Part shown: positions 41,520 to 47,303 of the stretch, piece after piece
How positions within the stretch are numbered: position 1 is the stretch's first letter
Layout of the letters: each line of letters starts with the position of its first letter
From: Escherichia coli
Lineage (GTDB): Bacteria; Pseudomonadota; Gammaproteobacteria; Enterobacterales; Enterobacteriaceae
Direction: 5' to 3' (one strand)
Length of the DNA: 64,000 nt
Assembly (NCBI RefSeq): GCF_030013595.1
Contig: NZ_CP122768.1
Program-made: the position numbers and the translations under genes
The notes under the pieces: model-generated
The model's input: only the letters and a program-made list of their open reading frames with translations
Databases searched by the model: none
Told to the model about the DNA's origin: nothing

Positions 41520-42722
41520 TTACAGCACCAGTGCTGCGATTGACGCAGACAGCACACTCACCAGGGTAGAGCCGTAAACCAGTTTCAGACCGAAGCGAGA
41601 AACCACGTTACCTTGCTCTTCATTCAGGCCTTTAACTGCACCTGCGATAATCCCGATTGAAGAGAAGTTAGCGAAGGAAACCAGGAACACAGAGATGATG
41701 CCTTCAGCACGCGGAGAAAGTGTAGAGGCAATTTTCTGCAGATCCATCATCGCAACGAACTCGTTGGAAACCAGTTTGGTCGCCATGATACTGCCCACTT
41801 GCAGTGCTTCACTGGAAGGAACACCCATCACCCATGCAATCGGATAGAAGATGTAGCCCAGGATGCCCTGGAAGGAGATGCTGTAGCCAAACCAGCCAGT
41901 CACGGTGGCAAACAGTGCGTTCAGCGCGGCGATCAGGGCGATAAAGCCGATCAGCATCGCGGCAACGATAATGGCGACTTTGAAACCTGCCAGAATGTAT
42001 TCACCCAGCATTTCGAAGAAGCTCTGACCTTCGTGTAGGTTGGACATCTGAATGTTTTCTTCACTGGCATCAACACGGTAAGGGTTGATCAGCGACAGCA
42101 CGATAAAGGTGCTGAACATGTTCAGTACCAGTGCCGCAACGACGTATTTCGGTTCCAGCATGGTCATGTATGCACCAACGATGGACATCGACACGGTGGA
42201 CATCGCCGTGGCAGCCATGGTGTACATGCGATTGCGGGAGATTTTGCCGAGGATATCTTTATAGGCAATAAAGTTTTCAGACTGACCCAGAATCAGGGAG
42301 CTGACGGCGTTAAAGGATTCCAGTTTGCCCATGCCGTTGACTTTGGAGAGCAGGAAACCAATTGCGCGGATAATCACCGGCAACACGCGAATGTGCTGGA
42401 GAATACCGATCAGTGCAGAGATAAAGACAATTGGGCACAGCACTTTCAGGAAGAAGAATGCCAGGCCTTGATCATTCATGCTACCAAAGACGAAGTTAGT
42501 CCCTTCGTTGGCAAATCCGAGCAGTTTTTCGAACATTTCGGAGAAGCCTTTCACGAAGCCTAAACCAACGTCGGAGTTCAGGAAGAACCACGCCAGTAAC
42601 ACTTCGATAACAAGCAGTTGAATAACATAACGGATACGAATTTTTTTGCGGTCGCTGCTTACCAGCAGTGCGAGAATCGCAACAACGGCAAGTGCCAGTA
42701 CAAAATGAAGGACGCGGTCCAT
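41520..42722 (-). CDS. nupC: concentrative nucleoside:H+ symporter NupC
   Basis: 400 aa from ATG 42720-42722 ([20 protein letters not shown]...); polytopic CNT family. Confidence 0.92.
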
Positions 42723-42987
42723 ATTTGCTCCAAATATGAGGCAGGTTAAATTTCCGTGCACATTCTATGTAACATGGTTAAGGAAAACGAGATCTGACAC
42801 ACACTATAATGACGTCCTGTGACAAGCTTCAAAAATAGTGAGCTGTCATACATTTCTGCTATGTTGTGTATGGAAGCTGAAAGTTATGTAAATGTGCTAA
42901 CATTAAACATAACCATAACATTCAAGTCATCAATCTTTTCGTAGTCATAATCCTGGTCTATCAGAGAAATCACCACAATCCATTTAA

Positions 42988-43046
42988 ATGAATTTGATAA
43001 TCATTCTCGTTTGGCATAGCATGAAACATAGCAAAGGCTATGTTTT
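42988..43046 (+). promoter_or_regulatory. mntH operator region: Fur-box-like and MntR-box-like sites
   Basis: AATGAATTTGATAATCATTCTC (Fur-like, about 42988-43009) and palindrome AAACATAGCAAAGGCTATGTTT (43024-43045) just upstream of mntH ATG 43058. Confidence 0.55.
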
Positions 43047-43048
43047 AG

Positions 43049-44296
<1,248 letters not shown>

Positions 44297-44323
44297 TTGA
44301 ATGAGCGTCGCATCTGGCACTAT

Positions 44324-44412
<89 letters not shown>

Positions 44413-44436
44413 ATTGTGCTCCATTGGCAAATGTGT

Positions 44437-44763
44437 TTAATGGCGGTGTCCATGTCCGCGGCCTTTTCCGCGATGATCGTCACGATCGCGCCAGCCTTCA
44501 CGATAGCCACGCTCATACGCTTTACGCTTATCCCAGCCACGATGGTAGCCATTATCATGACGCCACCAGCGGTTCTTACGCCATTCATAATTGCGATGCC
44601 AGTAGTCACGGTCGCGCCAGTGACCACCGTCCCAGTAATTACCGTAATGATCGCGATCGCCAATTTGTAATTTGATTGATGGCAGTAGGGTGATTTCACC
44701 TGCGTTTGCCGCAAGCGGGGTAAATGCCATCAGGGCGGCCGCCAGAAACAGTGACCTGAACAT
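44437..44763 (-). CDS. ypeC: secreted low-complexity protein YpeC
   Basis: 108-aa ORF; signal peptide [21 protein letters not shown]; mature part rich in R/D/H/W/Y repeats ending [10 protein letters not shown]. Confidence 0.85.
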
Positions 44764-44877
44764 TGTTATTCTCCTTCACGATCGAAGCCGTCAGCGGCCT
44801 GTTAACGCAATATTACGGGGAGGTAAAGCCCCGTATCATCGCCATAACTCTTAAATCATAAAGGAGAGCATTTTTTG

Positions 44878-46134
44878 CTAAACGTTATCGTGGGGTGGCT
44901 GTTGCTTCGGACGATTGACCATCATCATCGGCTTACCTGCTAATAACAGCCATGCCGGAAGCATGACGATACAGAGCAGCGGTAGCAATGTGGTATTGGG
45001 TACAACGACTGCCGCCATAAAAAGACTTAACCAGCCATCGCGTGTTACCACCAGCACGATGCCGAGAATAGCGCAGGAAACGGTTATTGCCGCTGGAACG
45101 GCGGGAACGTGCTCATGCAGCATCAACCCTAATGCCACGCCGACAAACACTGCCGGGAAGATTCGCCCACCGCGAAAGCCACTGGCGGCAGCAACGACCA
45201 GGGCGGCAAGTTTAATTACCGCCAGCAAAAAGTAATCGCTGGTGCTGAAAGCCTGATTTGCCACCATCTGCTGCATCTCATCCAGCCCTTTAAACAGCGA
45301 AACTGGTCCACCAATAACCCCCAGAATACCGAGAATAAATCCGCCAATACCCAGCACGAGCACCGGATTTTTCATTTGATGCATCATCGCGTGCAACCGT
45401 GGTAAGCACCATACGGCGACCATCCCTGCTGCGATGGCAATCGCCGCGACAATTGCACCGCTGAGAATATCGGTCATTTCCATTTGTCCGTAATGCGCAA
45501 TGGGCAGTGAAAAATGGGGATGGAAAAATAATCCGGTAGTAAGTGCACCAGCTGCTGCCGCCATTAACGGCGCAAAAAGACGATCCCATAGCGGAACTTC
45601 ACTACTACCATTTAAGGTTTGCGAAAATATCAACGCCGCCGCAACAGGTGTGCCAAACAGCGCGCCGATGGTTCCGGCAGAGGCTAAAATAGTCCACTCC
45701 ATTCGGTTGACGCGCGGTAACAGACGAGCGCCAATGGCAACCGCAAGGGCGATATTGACGGTCATGATCGGATGTTCTGGCCCCAGGCTGACGCCACCAG
45801 CAAGACCAAGAATTAATGCTACGATAAGTCCTGGTAGCGCAGAGGGCGGAACTGGTGCGCCGATCAGCGGTTCACAGGCGGGGTCTGGTCCGGCATGACC
45901 CTGGCTGAAACGGATAACCAACCCCACCGCAATACCTGTTAGCGTTAATATGGCGATGATCCAGAAAGGTGAATCCTGAGCTATCCCCAGAGTTCCCGGC
46001 AGTCGTTGCCAGAGCAAATTCTGTAATACCGAGGCGATTTTCATCACCACAATCAGAATAAGACTGGACGCAATCCCAATTGCCACGGCGGGGAGCGATA
46101 ATAACAACATGGTTCTGGCTCGCGGATGGAGCAT
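44878..46134 (-). CDS. yfeO: putative ion channel/transporter YfeO (ClC-like)
   Basis: 418-aa polytopic ORF. Confidence 0.85.
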
Positions 46135-46337: not shown

Positions 46338-47303
46338 ATGACAAAGTATGCATTAGTCGGTGATGTGGGCGGCACCAACGCACGTCTTGCTCTGTGTGAT
46401 ATTGCCAGTGGTGAAATCTCGCAGGCTAAGACCTATTCAGGGCTTGATTACCCCAGCCTCGAAGCGGTCATTCGCGTTTATCTTGAAGAACATAAGGTCG
46501 AGGTGAAAGACGGCTGTATTGCCATCGCTTGCCCAATTACCGGTGACTGGGTGGCAATGACCAACCATACCTGGGCGTTCTCAATTGCCGAAATGAAAAA
46601 GAATCTCGGTTTTAGCCATCTGGAAATTATTAACGATTTTACCGCTGTATCGATGGCGATCCCGATGCTGAAAAAAGAGCATCTGATTCAGTTTGGTGGC
46701 GCAGAACCGGTCGAAGGTAAGCCTATTGCGGTTTACGGTGCCGGAACGGGGCTTGGGGTTGCGCATCTGGTCCATGTCGATAAGCGTTGGGTAAGCTTGC
46801 CAGGCGAAGGCGGTCACGTTGATTTTGCGCCGAATAGTGAAGAAGAGGCCATTATCCTCGAAATACTGCGTGCAGAAATTGGTCATGTTTCGGCAGAGCG
46901 CGTGCTTTCTGGTCCTGGGCTGGTGAATTTGTATCGCGCGATTGTGAAAGCCGACAACCGCCTGCCAGAAAATCTCAAGCCAAAAGATATTACCGAACGT
47001 GCGCTGGCTGACAGCTGCACCGATTGCCGCCGCGCGTTGTCGCTGTTTTGCGTCATTATGGGCCGTTTTGGCGGCAATCTGGCGCTCAATCTCGGGACAT
47101 TTGGCGGCGTGTTTATTGCGGGTGGTATCGTGCCGCGCTTCCTTGAGTTCTTCAAAGCCTCTGGTTTCCGTGCCGCATTTGAAGATAAAGGGCGCTTTAA
47201 AGAATATGTCCATGATATTCCGGTGTATCTCATCGTCCATGACAATCCGGGCCTTCTTGGTTCCGGTGCACATTTACGCCAGACCTTAGGTCACATTCTG
47301 TAA
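46338..47303 (+). CDS. glk: glucokinase
   Basis: 321-aa ORF; N-terminal ATP-binding [14 protein letters not shown]. Confidence 0.95.

What the first reader, a model, noticed from the sequence alone, without database searches (positions are those of the whole stretch)
44437..44763. YpeC: secreted, highly repetitive R/D/H/W/Y-rich small protein next to mntH
After a signal peptide the protein is dominated by short repeats ([59 protein letters not shown]) and ends with a His-rich tail. This composition suggests metal or envelope-polyanion binding, and it is divergently placed relative to the metal transporter mntH. Function is unknown.
Basis: partly seen in the sequence, partly recalled or inferred. 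Interest (0 to 1): 0.25.

Follow-up and report, generated by a model that had tools for sequence, protein, structure and literature searches.

The report
YpeC, a stress-induced periplasmic mini-protein
This is the already annotated E. coli gene ypeC, a small exported protein of unknown function that published data show is switched on by cell-envelope and antibiotic/oxidative stress regulators; its position next to the manganese transporter gene mntH shows no sign of shared regulation.

Summary
The ORF is real. Window 44437-44763, minus strand, encodes 108 aa, and its protein is identical to E. coli K-12 YpeC (DUF2502, PF10697). It is present in about 5,391 of 5,426 complete E. coli genomes and is under strong purifying selection.

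The composition claim holds. A Sec signal peptide is followed by a region that is 68% R/D/H/W/Y and ends in a His-rich tail. "Highly repetitive" is overstated, because self-similarity is no higher than in shuffled sequences. "Divergent from mntH" is wrong. The two genes are tail-to-tail, separated by a REP-filled spacer, and the MntR box lies 1.7 kb away at the other end of mntH.

AlphaFold2 predicts a compact Trp/Arg-rich mini-domain of about 40 residues (32-71) with no PDB fold match. A disordered, cationic, His-rich tail follows it.

Published data place ypeC in the Rcs envelope-stress regulon (42-60x up on LolCDE inhibition, 24x down in an rcsB mutant). They also show it is a MarA/SoxS target, and the marbox is at 44868-44882. 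The paralog yaaX is Rcs-regulated too. I found no data on metal-responsive regulation of ypeC itself.

My best reading is a periplasmic envelope-stress effector that binds anionic envelope components. Metal binding by the tail remains a live rival. The gene is known, its function is still open, and interest is low.

The parts
44437..44763 (-). ypeC coding sequence (108 codons plus TAA stop)
   Evidence: ORF list. Pfam DUF2502 E=3e-24. Annotated as ypeC in E. coli genomes. Protein identical to K-12 YpeC. dN/dS 0.02-0.13 against other genera.
44701..44763 (-). Predicted Sec signal peptide, residues 1-21 ([21 protein letters not shown], cleavage after A-N-A)
   Evidence: Read directly from the sequence. 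M1, R3, S4, L5, A19 and A21 are invariant in 16 orthologs. No lipobox Cys and no twin-arginine motif. Cleavage was not shown experimentally here.
44671..44700 (-). Conserved N-terminal strand-turn-strand of the mature protein, residues 22-31 ([10 protein letters not shown])
   Evidence: E23, I24, T25, L26 and P28 are invariant in orthologs. An alternating hydrophobic pattern with P(G) is kept across the family. AF2 predicts strands, but with pLDDT of only about 58.
44551..44670 (-). DUF2502 core mini-domain, residues 32-71 ([40 protein letters not shown]). It carries the family motif GDRDxxGxYWDGxxWRDxxWW.
44440..44550 (-). Predicted disordered, cationic, His-rich C-terminal tail, residues 72-108 ([37 protein letters not shown])
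   Evidence: pLDDT below 50 in both models. Length varies between genera through indels of RGWDK-like and GWGRG units. Across the family, sequence after the core is 10.5% His and 17.7% Arg.
44771..44776 (-). Shine-Dalgarno AAGGAG, 7 nt before the ATG
   Evidence: Read from the sequence. GAAGGAGA is conserved in Citrobacter, Klebsiella and Cronobacter, and GGAGA is invariant including Pantoea.
44810..44815 (-). Candidate -10 hexamer TAATAT (inferred, not mapped)
   Evidence: CCGTAATAT is conserved in four Enterobacteriaceae genera. The generic sigma-70 scan found no full promoter, which fits an activator-dependent promoter. The transcription start site was not determined here.
44868..44882 (+). 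marbox GCATTTTTTGCTAAA (MarA/SoxS/Rob site). It overlaps the yfeO stop codon, lies 105-119 nt upstream of the ypeC ATG, and is in backward orientation relative to ypeC.
   Evidence: Exact match to the site reported for ypeC in the MarA ChIP-seq study (PMC5684230) and for SoxS in Salmonella (PMC10268841). Located by pattern search. Conserved at the same distance in Klebsiella, Cronobacter and Citrobacter.
44304..44420 (.). REP/BIME palindromic elements filling the spacer between the 3' ends of mntH and ypeC. They are context and probably act as a transcript-end structure.
   Evidence: Sub-threshold Rfam naRNA4 (REP-derived) matches at 44304-44355 and 44380-44451. Nested inverted repeats. The same spacer is only 57-88 bp in other genera.
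43025..43044 (+). MntR box AACATAGCAAAGGCTATGTT upstream of mntH. This is context that shows where the Mn-responsive control sits.
   Evidence: It is the only match in the 64-kb window, with 0 mismatches. It lies 13 nt before the mntH ATG at 43058, at the far end of mntH from ypeC.

Best explanation
This is ypeC, a core E. coli gene for a small Sec-exported periplasmic protein of the DUF2502 family.

After signal-peptide removal the 87-residue protein is predicted to consist of three parts: a short conserved beta-hairpin, a compact Trp/Tyr/Arg/Asp-rich mini-domain of about 40 residues with almost no aliphatic core, and a disordered tail of about 37 residues. I infer that Trp-Arg stacking and Asp-Arg salt bridges hold the mini-domain together. 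The tail is cationic and His-rich.

The gene has its own activator-dependent promoter. It is silent in unstressed cells and is strongly induced when the Rcs phosphorelay senses outer-membrane, lipoprotein or peptidoglycan damage. MarA/SoxS also bind a marbox upstream of it.

My committed mechanism is inferred, not shown. The protein accumulates in the periplasm during envelope damage. There it binds anionic or glycan envelope components, which could be peptidoglycan, phospholipid headgroups, LPS or colanic acid in transit, or osmoregulated glucans. The aromatic/Arg surface and the cationic tail would do the binding, and the protein would stabilise or shield the envelope. The His residues would make its charge, and perhaps its cation binding, sensitive to pH and metal.

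Its position next to mntH is inherited synteny in a tail-to-tail arrangement, not co-regulation.
For: Identity, which is effectively certain:
- The ORF is present, it matches DUF2502, and it is annotated as ypeC.
- The protein is identical to K-12 YpeC.
- dN/dS is 0.02-0.13.

Export:
- A canonical signal peptide with an invariant A-x-A site.

Architecture:
- Two independent AF2 runs agree on a confident core at residues 32-71 and a disordered 72-108.
- The family-wide invariant motif lies in that core.
- The module is duplicated in some relatives, which suggests an autonomous unit.

Charge and composition:
- Net charge is +7 before counting 9 His, and there are 15 aromatic residues in 87.

Regulation, from papers:
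- 42-60x induction alongside osmB, bdm, wca and rcsA on LolCDE inhibition (PMC5105897).
- 23.7x lower expression in an rcsB-disrupted O157 isolate (PMC5343319).
- The paralog yaaX is in the RcsB regulon and is induced by colicin M (PMC2731931, PMC3599342, PMC8470065).
- MarA ChIP target (PMC5684230).
- SoxS target in Salmonella (PMC10268841).
- The marbox was found and is conserved.

Separation from mntH control:
- Convergent orientation.
- The MntR box occurs only at 43025-43044.
Against: - No binding partner has been shown for any DUF2502 protein. The ligand is inferred from composition and regulon membership only.
- No structural or sequence relative with a known function exists.
- No RcsB box within 1 mismatch of TNRGAN4TCYNA was found in the promoter, so Rcs control may be indirect.
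- The conserved His-rich, and in distant members His/Asp-rich, tails are explained at least as well by metal binding.
- Periplasmic localisation and signal-peptide cleavage rest on sequence alone.
Confidence: 0.4

Rival explanations
1. Periplasmic metal-binding protein (buffer or chaperone). The C-terminal (H-G/H-R)n tail, possibly together with the conserved Asp residues of the DRDxxG...WDG core, would bind Zn2+, Ni2+, Cu2+ or similar ions and protect the envelope during metal stress.
For: - H104 is invariant, and GHGHGH-type tails are present in 16 orthologs.
- Intact distant members have unrelated but still His-rich or His/Asp-rich tails, with 10.5% His after the core.
- yaaX appears alongside zraP and cus genes among transcripts changed in cusS mutants (PMC10920338).
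- A DUF2502 gene rises together with zraP in soil-incubated E. coli (PMC10667640).
- One Pantoea member is named 'Zinc ABC transporter substrate-binding protein' by a source. This is probably a composition-driven misnomer.
Against: - None of the papers found reports metal-responsive regulation of ypeC itself. The strong signals are Rcs and MarA/SoxS.
- There is no MntR or Fur box at its promoter.
- There is no homology to RcnB, ZraP/CpxP/Spy, CusF or ZinT families; only DUF2502 is hit in Pfam at E up to 10.
- Some family members replace the His tail with CPPGQAKKGxC.
- The most conserved part is the Trp/Arg core, not the tail.
Confidence: 0.25
2. Conditionally disordered periplasmic holdase or anti-aggregation protein. 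It would work like other small basic periplasmic stress proteins such as Asr (comparison from my own knowledge), with His protonation tuning its activity under acid or envelope stress.
For: - 37 of 87 mature residues are predicted disordered and basic.
- It is induced together with spy, cpxP and degP in the LolCDE-inhibitor data set.
- It shows mild induction after rapid acid shift (PMC2270276).
- It is listed among multi-stress 'core perturbome' genes (PMC12389024; PMC9501238).
Against: - The family-defining part is a folded, highly conserved mini-domain. This suggests a specific ligand rather than promiscuous client binding.
- There is no sequence or fold relation to known periplasmic chaperones.
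Confidence: 0.15
3. Functional partner of MntH in manganese/iron or peroxide homeostasis. The idea rests on conserved adjacency, for example via antisense or read-through interplay of the convergent transcripts.
For: - The tail-to-tail ypeC/mntH pair is kept from Escherichia to Klebsiella, Cronobacter and Chimaeribacter with only 57-88 bp between the stops.
- The paralog yaaX is likewise tail-to-tail with yaaA. yaaA is an OxyR-regulon gene that lowers free iron (Liu et al. 2011, as cited in 10.1101/575134).
- mntH is OxyR-induced, from my own knowledge of the literature.
Against: - Convergent genes share no promoter, and the MntR box is at the far end of mntH.
- Insertions separate the two genes in Pantoea and Citrobacter braakii without loss of ypeC.
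- Distant members in Azonexus and in a metagenome contig have no Nramp neighbour.
- The whole ipdC-AKR-ypeC-mntH-nupC block is syntenic (PMC5770404), so adjacency carries little information.
Confidence: 0.05

Closest known systems
YaaX (E. coli b0005), the DUF2502 paralog
   Same: 62% identity over residues 2-66, covering the signal peptide, the [16 protein letters not shown] strand and the YWDGGHWRD...YEWRxNRW core. It also has a His-rich tail, is Rcs-regulated and is tail-to-tail with a stress gene.
   Different: The C-terminal half is unrelated: Pro/His-rich in YaaX, against the GW/RD-rich and GHGH half of YpeC. Induction is weaker in the same data set, 8-12x against 42-60x. No marbox or MarA binding was reported for yaaX in the papers read.
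Small Rcs-induced envelope proteins of unknown or partly known role (OsmB, YcfJ, Bdm, YpfG, YaiY, YmgD/YmgG, Ivy)
   Same: They are co-induced to similar extremes by LolCDE inhibition and lost in the rcsB mutant. They are small, exported and restricted to enterobacteria.
   Different: There is no sequence relationship. YpeC is soluble (no lipobox, no TM segment) and uniquely Trp/Arg/His-rich. For Ivy a target (lysozyme) is known; for YpeC none is.
His-rich periplasmic metal proteins (ZraP, RcnB/YohN, ZinT, the ZnuA His-loop)
   Same: They are periplasmic, small and carry clustered His residues. That makes them a plausible model for how the tail could work.
   Different: No Pfam or PDB sequence similarity. 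No metal-responsive regulation of ypeC was found in the papers I could search, and there is no MntR or Fur site at the promoter. Membership was tested and not met.
Aromatic beta-hairpin ligand-binding repeats (choline/cell-wall-binding repeats, GW-type modules). This is an analogy only, recalled from memory.
   Same: A short module of about 20-25 residues has an aromatic-aromatic-Asp-Gly turn (YWDG) and is sometimes duplicated in tandem in relatives. Aromatic plus Asp/Arg chemistry is typical of glycan or amine binding.
   Different: There is no detectable homology; Pfam gives only DUF2502 even at E up to 10. No fold match was found. The resemblance is a lead, not a test.

Membership tests
DUF2502 (Pfam PF10697) | Score above the Pfam gathering threshold over the whole model | tested here: met
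   85.4 bits against a cut-off of 27, E=3.1e-24, model positions 1-90 of 90. The mature protein alone scores 86.6 bits.
DUF2502 (Pfam PF10697) | Signal peptide followed by the conserved motif P-x-[VIL]-x-L-x-I-G-D-R-D-x-x-G-x-Y-W-D-G-x-x-W-R-D-x-x-W | tested here: met
   G35 and G41 are invariant, and P28, D38, Y43, W44, D45, G46, W49, R50 and W55 are at least 90% conserved, in a 71-sequence family alignment with YpeC as reference.
Rcs (RcsB) regulon | Expression depends on RcsB and rises with Rcs-activating envelope damage | not testable with these tools
   Literature only. 42-60x up with a LolCDE inhibitor, alongside canonical Rcs genes (PMC5105897). 23.7x down in an rcsB-disrupted O157 isolate (PMC5343319).
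Rcs (RcsB) regulon | RcsB box (TNRGAN4TCYNA, recalled from the literature) just upstream of the -35 region | tested here: not met
   There is no match within 1 mismatch in the 157 nt upstream of the ATG. The only 2-mismatch match (TAACAGGCCGCTGA) lies 28-41 nt before the ATG, too close to act as an activator site. Control may be indirect, or may act through a divergent site.
MarA/SoxS/Rob regulon | marbox upstream of the promoter | tested here: met
   GCATTTTTTGCTAAA lies at 44868-44882. It is identical to the published site and is conserved at the same distance in Klebsiella, Cronobacter and Citrobacter.
MarA/SoxS/Rob regulon | In vivo binding by the regulator | not testable with these tools
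   Literature only. A MarA ChIP-seq peak scored '+++' in ETEC, with ypeC also listed among the SoxS ChIP-exo targets (PMC5684230). A SoxS ChIP-seq peak in Salmonella (PMC10268841).
MntR/Fur metal regulons (co-regulation with mntH) | MntR or Fur operator in the ypeC promoter region, or a regulatory region shared with mntH | tested here: not met
   The single MntR box in the window is at 43025-43044, upstream of mntH. No Fur consensus was found within 3 mismatches anywhere in the window. The genes are convergent.
Known periplasmic metal or stress protein families (RcnB, CpxP/Spy/ZraP, ZinT, CusF) | Sequence or fold similarity to a family member | tested here: not met
Tandem-repeat protein | Internal self-similarity above what the composition gives | tested here: not met
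   The best self-alignment scores 45, against 35.4 +/- 6.5 for shuffles of the mature protein (p=0.09) and 44.7 +/- 7.7 for shuffles of the core (p=0.44).
His-rich metal-binding tail | Clustered His at the terminus, and measured metal binding | tested here: inconclusive
   The His cluster is present and conserved in composition. Metal binding itself cannot be tested with these tools.

The most novel reading that the evidence does not exclude
The DUF2502 core would be a previously undescribed Trp/Arg-ladder mini-fold that recognises a specific envelope glycan or cation. YpeC and YaaX together would be real effectors of the Rcs response, for instance by binding peptidoglycan or colanic-acid intermediates. 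A further possibility is that the conserved tail-to-tail pairing of both paralogs with peroxide/metal genes (mntH, yaaA) reflects real regulatory coupling through convergent transcription.
Probability: 0.1. Interest if true: 0.45.

Novelty: already known. Interest (0 to 1): 0.2.

Why it matters
ypeC is one of the most strongly Rcs-induced genes in E. coli and a conserved MarA/SoxS target, yet no function is known for it or for any DUF2502 protein. Working out what it binds would fill a gap in how enterobacteria repair or shield a damaged envelope. That in turn bears on intrinsic tolerance to beta-lactams, polymyxins and lipoprotein-trafficking inhibitors. As a scan finding it adds nothing new. 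The gene, its family and its regulation are already on record, and the suggested link to mntH does not hold.

Tried and rejected
Searches that found nothing:
- NCBIfam and PADLOC.
- The PDB sequence profile search; its best hits were His-tag and low-complexity artefacts at E of at least 0.5.
- Foldseek against the PDB, best E=7.8.
- The afdb50 fold library was not available.

Other dead ends:
- An exhaustive HMM search of 1.84 billion representatives returned only 114 hits. The four large multi-domain hits (P0185, P0228-P0230) match only a short beta-hairpin-like stretch such as 'NYWDGGAW'. I rejected them as relatives.
- Tandem-repeat reading: rejected by the shuffle test. An earlier version of that script timed out.
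- RcsB box: none found in a convincing position.
- Fur box: none.
- A generic sigma-70 promoter or intrinsic terminator near ypeC: none.
- ORFs overlapping ypeC (44416-44670 +, 44424-44675 +, 44355-44714 -): rejected as by-products of the biased codon usage. Only the ypeC frame has homologs and purifying selection.
- Locus-tag literature search (b2390 and similar) gave nothing new.
- The RcsB ChIP-seq literature search gave nothing naming ypeC.
- Laubacher & Ades 2008 (PMC2258881) is not held.
- One contig look-up failed and was repeated.

Full report
**1. What is at the coordinates**

The ORF list shows an ATG-initiated open reading frame at 44437-44763 on the minus strand, 108 codons plus stop. 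Its translation is [108 protein letters not shown].

The protein matches Pfam DUF2502 (PF10697) end to end, with E=3.1e-24 and 85 bits against a cut-off of 27. It has no NCBIfam model. A 601-bp query around it is found in 5,425 of 5,426 complete E. coli genomes and covered at 80% or more in 5,391. There it is annotated 'ypeC: DUF2502 domain-containing protein YpeC'.

Aligned with K-12 MG1655 (b2390), the coding sequence differs at nine positions, all synonymous, so the protein is identical to K-12 YpeC. Against Citrobacter, Klebsiella and Cronobacter orthologs dN/dS is 0.02, 0.13 and 0.12. This is a real, constrained gene and part of the E. coli core genome.

**2. Checking the observation**

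The N-terminus has a positively charged start, a hydrophobic core and an A-N-A cleavage motif. A19 and A21 are invariant in 16 orthologs. There is no lipobox cysteine and no twin-arginine motif, so a Sec/SPase I signal is the natural reading, although cleavage was not shown here.

The predicted mature protein has these properties:
- 87 residues and pI about 10.
- 16 Arg, 13 Gly, 10 Asp, 9 His, 8 Trp and 7 Tyr.
- R/D/H/W/Y make up 68% of residues 36-108.
- Four of the last twelve residues are His.

So the composition claim and the His-rich tail are confirmed.

The phrase 'highly repetitive' is not confirmed. The best internal self-alignment scores 45. Shuffles of the same composition give 35.4 +/- 6.5 for the mature protein (p=0.09) and 44.7 +/- 7.7 for the biased core (p=0.44). 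Only WRDRD and GY[HR][RE]GW occur twice. This is a compositionally biased protein with short recurring motifs. Orthologs do gain or lose RGWDK-like and GWGRG units in the tail.

**3. The neighbourhood, and the error about mntH**

The genes around the finding, with Pfam support, are:

| Gene | Strand | Coordinates | Pfam family |
|---|---|---|---|
| nupC | - | 41520-42761 | Nucleoside transporter |
| mntH | + | 43058-44296 | Nramp |
| ypeC | - | 44437-44763 | DUF2502 |
| yfeO | - | 44878-46134 | CLC-type channel |
| glk | + | 46338-47303 | Glucokinase |

mntH and ypeC therefore point toward each other. They are convergent, not divergent.

The 140-bp spacer between their stop codons is built of REP/BIME palindromes. 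The evidence is sub-threshold naRNA4 matches at 44304-44355 and 44380-44451 and nested inverted repeats.

The only MntR operator in the whole window (AACATAGCAAAGGCTATGTT, 0 mismatches) is at 43025-43044, 13 nt before the mntH start and 1.7 kb from the ypeC promoter. No Fur consensus is found within three mismatches.

The block AKR -> ypeC -> <- mntH, nupC -> is kept in several lineages:
- Klebsiella, Cronobacter, Chimaeribacter and a metagenomic enterobacterial contig keep it intact.
- Pantoea has a methyltransferase inserted between ypeC and mntH.
- Citrobacter braakii has a PTS/lyase block there instead.
- A published synteny analysis of the ipdC region says the same (PMC5770404).
- Distant DUF2502 genes in Azonexus and in a metagenome contig have no Nramp neighbour.
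- The E. coli paralog yaaX sits between thrC and yaaA.

The adjacency is thus inherited synteny. It offers no shared control region.

**4. The ypeC promoter region**

ypeC has a strong Shine-Dalgarno sequence (AAGGAG, 44771-44776) seven bases before the ATG.

An alignment of upstream regions from four Enterobacteriaceae genera shows conserved blocks, even though the upstream gene differs (yfeO in E. coli, an aldo-keto reductase elsewhere). This argues for an own promoter. The blocks include CCGTAATAT, a candidate -10 at 44810-44815, and TTTAGCAAAAA(A/G)TGC.

The second block is the reverse complement of GCATTTTTTGCTAAA at 44868-44882. That is exactly the marbox reported for ypeC in the MarA ChIP-seq study of E. 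coli (PMC5684230) and for SoxS in Salmonella (PMC10268841). It sits at the same distance from the ATG in Klebsiella, Cronobacter and Citrobacter, and is absent in Pantoea and Chimaeribacter.

A generic sigma-70 scan finds no full consensus promoter, as expected for an activator-dependent one. I found no RcsB box within one mismatch of the consensus I recalled (TNRGAN4TCYNA). The only two-mismatch match lies too close to the ATG to be an activator site.

**5. What the literature says about expression**

- ypeC is among the most strongly induced genes (42x and 60x) when lipoprotein trafficking is blocked with a LolCDE inhibitor. It appears next to osmB, ycfJ, bdm, wca genes, rcsA, spy and cpxP (PMC5105897).
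- In an E. coli O157:H7 isolate with a disrupted rcsB it is 23.7-fold lower, again next to ycfJ (PMC5343319).
- The paralog yaaX is listed in the RcsB regulon (PMC2731931), is induced by colicin M with other Rcs genes (PMC3599342) and is 8-12x up in the LolCDE data set.
- A Serratia DUF2502 gene is used as an Rcs reporter (PMC8470065).
- ypeC also appears in multi-stress meta-analyses, after RP4 conjugation and, modestly, after rapid acid shift.
- I found no paper reporting that metals control ypeC. The nearest hints concern yaaX in cusS mutants and an unnamed DUF2502 gene rising with zraP in soil.

**6. The family and the predicted structure**

The family is small. A word-indexed search gave 278 hits. 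An exhaustive HMM search of 1.84 billion cluster representatives gave 114 at E of 0.001 or better. Named members are Enterobacterales (Enterobacteriaceae, Erwiniaceae, Yersiniaceae, Pectobacteriaceae) plus a few Betaproteobacteria such as Azonexus.

What is conserved across all of them is the signal peptide, an alternating hydrophobic strand with a Pro(-Gly) turn, and the motif IGDRDxxGxYWDGxxWRDxxWW. G35 and G41 are invariant. P28, D38, Y43, W44, D45, G46, W49, R50 and W55 are at least 90% conserved. Some relatives carry this module twice.

After the core, sequences diverge but remain Arg-, His-, Gly-, Asp-, Trp- and Tyr-rich, with 10.5% His and 17.7% Arg. A subgroup ends in CPPGQAKKGxC.

AlphaFold2 was run with a 71-sequence alignment of full-length proteins and again with a 43-sequence alignment of mature proteins. 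Both runs agree:
- Residues 32-71 are predicted with pLDDT 80-93. They form short strands, a helix at 52-58 and a hairpin at 59-68.
- The N-terminal strands are uncertain.
- Residues 72-108 are below 50, which I read as disorder.

**7. How it most likely works**

| Status | Claim |
|---|---|
| Shown, or close to it | A conserved, exported small protein. |
| Shown, or close to it | Its own promoter, with a conserved MarA/SoxS site. |
| Shown, or close to it | Very strong Rcs-dependent expression, for the paralog as well. |
| Shown, or close to it | No regulatory link to mntH. |
| Inferred | On envelope damage the protein fills the periplasm and binds anionic or glycan envelope material, stabilising or shielding it. 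Candidates are peptidoglycan, phospholipid headgroups, LPS or colanic acid in transit, and OPGs. Binding would be through an aromatic/Arg surface and a cationic tail. |

The inference rests on two facts. The protein has a net charge of +7, nine additional titratable His and fifteen aromatic side chains. The Rcs system responds to peptidoglycan, LPS and lipoprotein defects. I put this at about 0.4.

The main rival is metal binding by the His-rich tail (about 0.25). Its best support is the family-wide retention of His or His/Asp tails despite sequence turnover. Its weaknesses are the lack of any metal-responsive regulation and of any homology to known metal proteins. A chaperone-like role of the disordered tail (about 0.15) and a real functional tie to MntH (about 0.05) are less likely.

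**8. Comparison with what is known, and verdict**

The closest known entity is the paralog YaaX, with 62% identity over the first 66 residues. The closest functional company is the set of small Rcs-induced envelope proteins. Membership in DUF2502 and in the MarA/SoxS marbox class was tested and met. Membership in metal regulons, in known periplasmic metal or chaperone families, and in the class of true repeat proteins was tested and not met.

The gene, its family and its regulation are already on record, so the finding is 'already known'. The function is still open, which keeps a little interest.

One thing stands out beyond the finding. Both DUF2502 paralogs lie tail-to-tail with a peroxide/metal-related gene: ypeC with mntH, and yaaX with yaaA. 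yaaA's OxyR membership is as cited; mntH's is from my own knowledge. This may be plain synteny and was not tested further.

Noticed in passing
window 43058-44763; K-12 locus L001 435-1201; L011 and L012 3001-4141: Both E. coli DUF2502 paralogs are convergent (stop to stop) with a peroxide/metal-related gene: ypeC with mntH, and yaaX with yaaA. yaaA has Pfam H2O2_YaaD and is in the OxyR regulon, as cited in 10.1101/575134. Both pairings are conserved in other genera with only 37-88 bp between the stops. This could be plain synteny or a convergent-transcription relationship.
   Followed up: partly
window 42988-43077 (+): The 29-codon small ORF ypeD (annotated b4819 in K-12) is intact here ([29 protein letters not shown]). 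It overlaps the mntH start, and the MntR box (43025-43044) lies inside it.
   Followed up: partly
window 44304-44420: The spacer between mntH and ypeC is a cluster of REP/BIME palindromes. They give sub-threshold matches to Rfam naRNA4 on both strands. Other genera have only 57-88 bp here, so the REP cluster is an Escherichia-lineage insertion.
   Followed up: partly
proteins P0172, P0181, P0192, P0207, P0210, P0212, P0215, P0232 (for example locus L006 4001-4324): A subgroup of distant DUF2502 proteins, including one from Azonexus, replaces the His-rich end with a C-terminal CPPGQAKKGxC motif containing two Cys. From memory this motif resembles one seen in RcnB/CigR-like periplasmic proteins, but Pfam gave no such hit.
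   Followed up: partly
proteins P0141, P0145, P0148, P0171, P0175, P0188, P0190, P0192: Several relatives carry the GDRDxxGxYWDGxxWRDxxWW module twice in tandem. This suggests it is an autonomous structural unit of about 25-40 residues.
   Followed up: no
window 44355-44714 (-), 44416-44670 (+), 44424-44675 (+); proteins such as P0124, P0128, P0141, P0161, P0217: The biased codon usage of ypeC leaves long open alternative frames. Many metagenomic 'homologs' have I/T/M/A-rich tails that look like frameshifted translations of the same DNA. They inflate the apparent diversity of the family.
   Followed up: partly
window 44764-44900 compared with L002-L004 3845-4000: E. coli lacks the ipdC and aldo-keto-reductase genes that lie between yfeO/glk and ypeC in Citrobacter, Klebsiella, Cronobacter and Pantoea. 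As a result the ypeC marbox now overlaps the yfeO stop codon. A GC-rich hairpin-like element (GGGGCTTTACCTCCCC, 44819-44834) just upstream of the candidate -10 is partly conserved, with some compensating changes.
   Followed up: partly
window 41520-42761 (-): The mechanical ORF for nupC starts at a GTG and is 413 aa, whereas K-12 annotates 400 aa. The real start is probably the downstream ATG.
   Followed up: no
protein P0243 (Pantoea stewartii): One source names a DUF2502 protein 'Zinc ABC transporter substrate-binding protein'. There is no SBP domain, so this is probably a misannotation driven by the His-rich composition.
   Followed up: no
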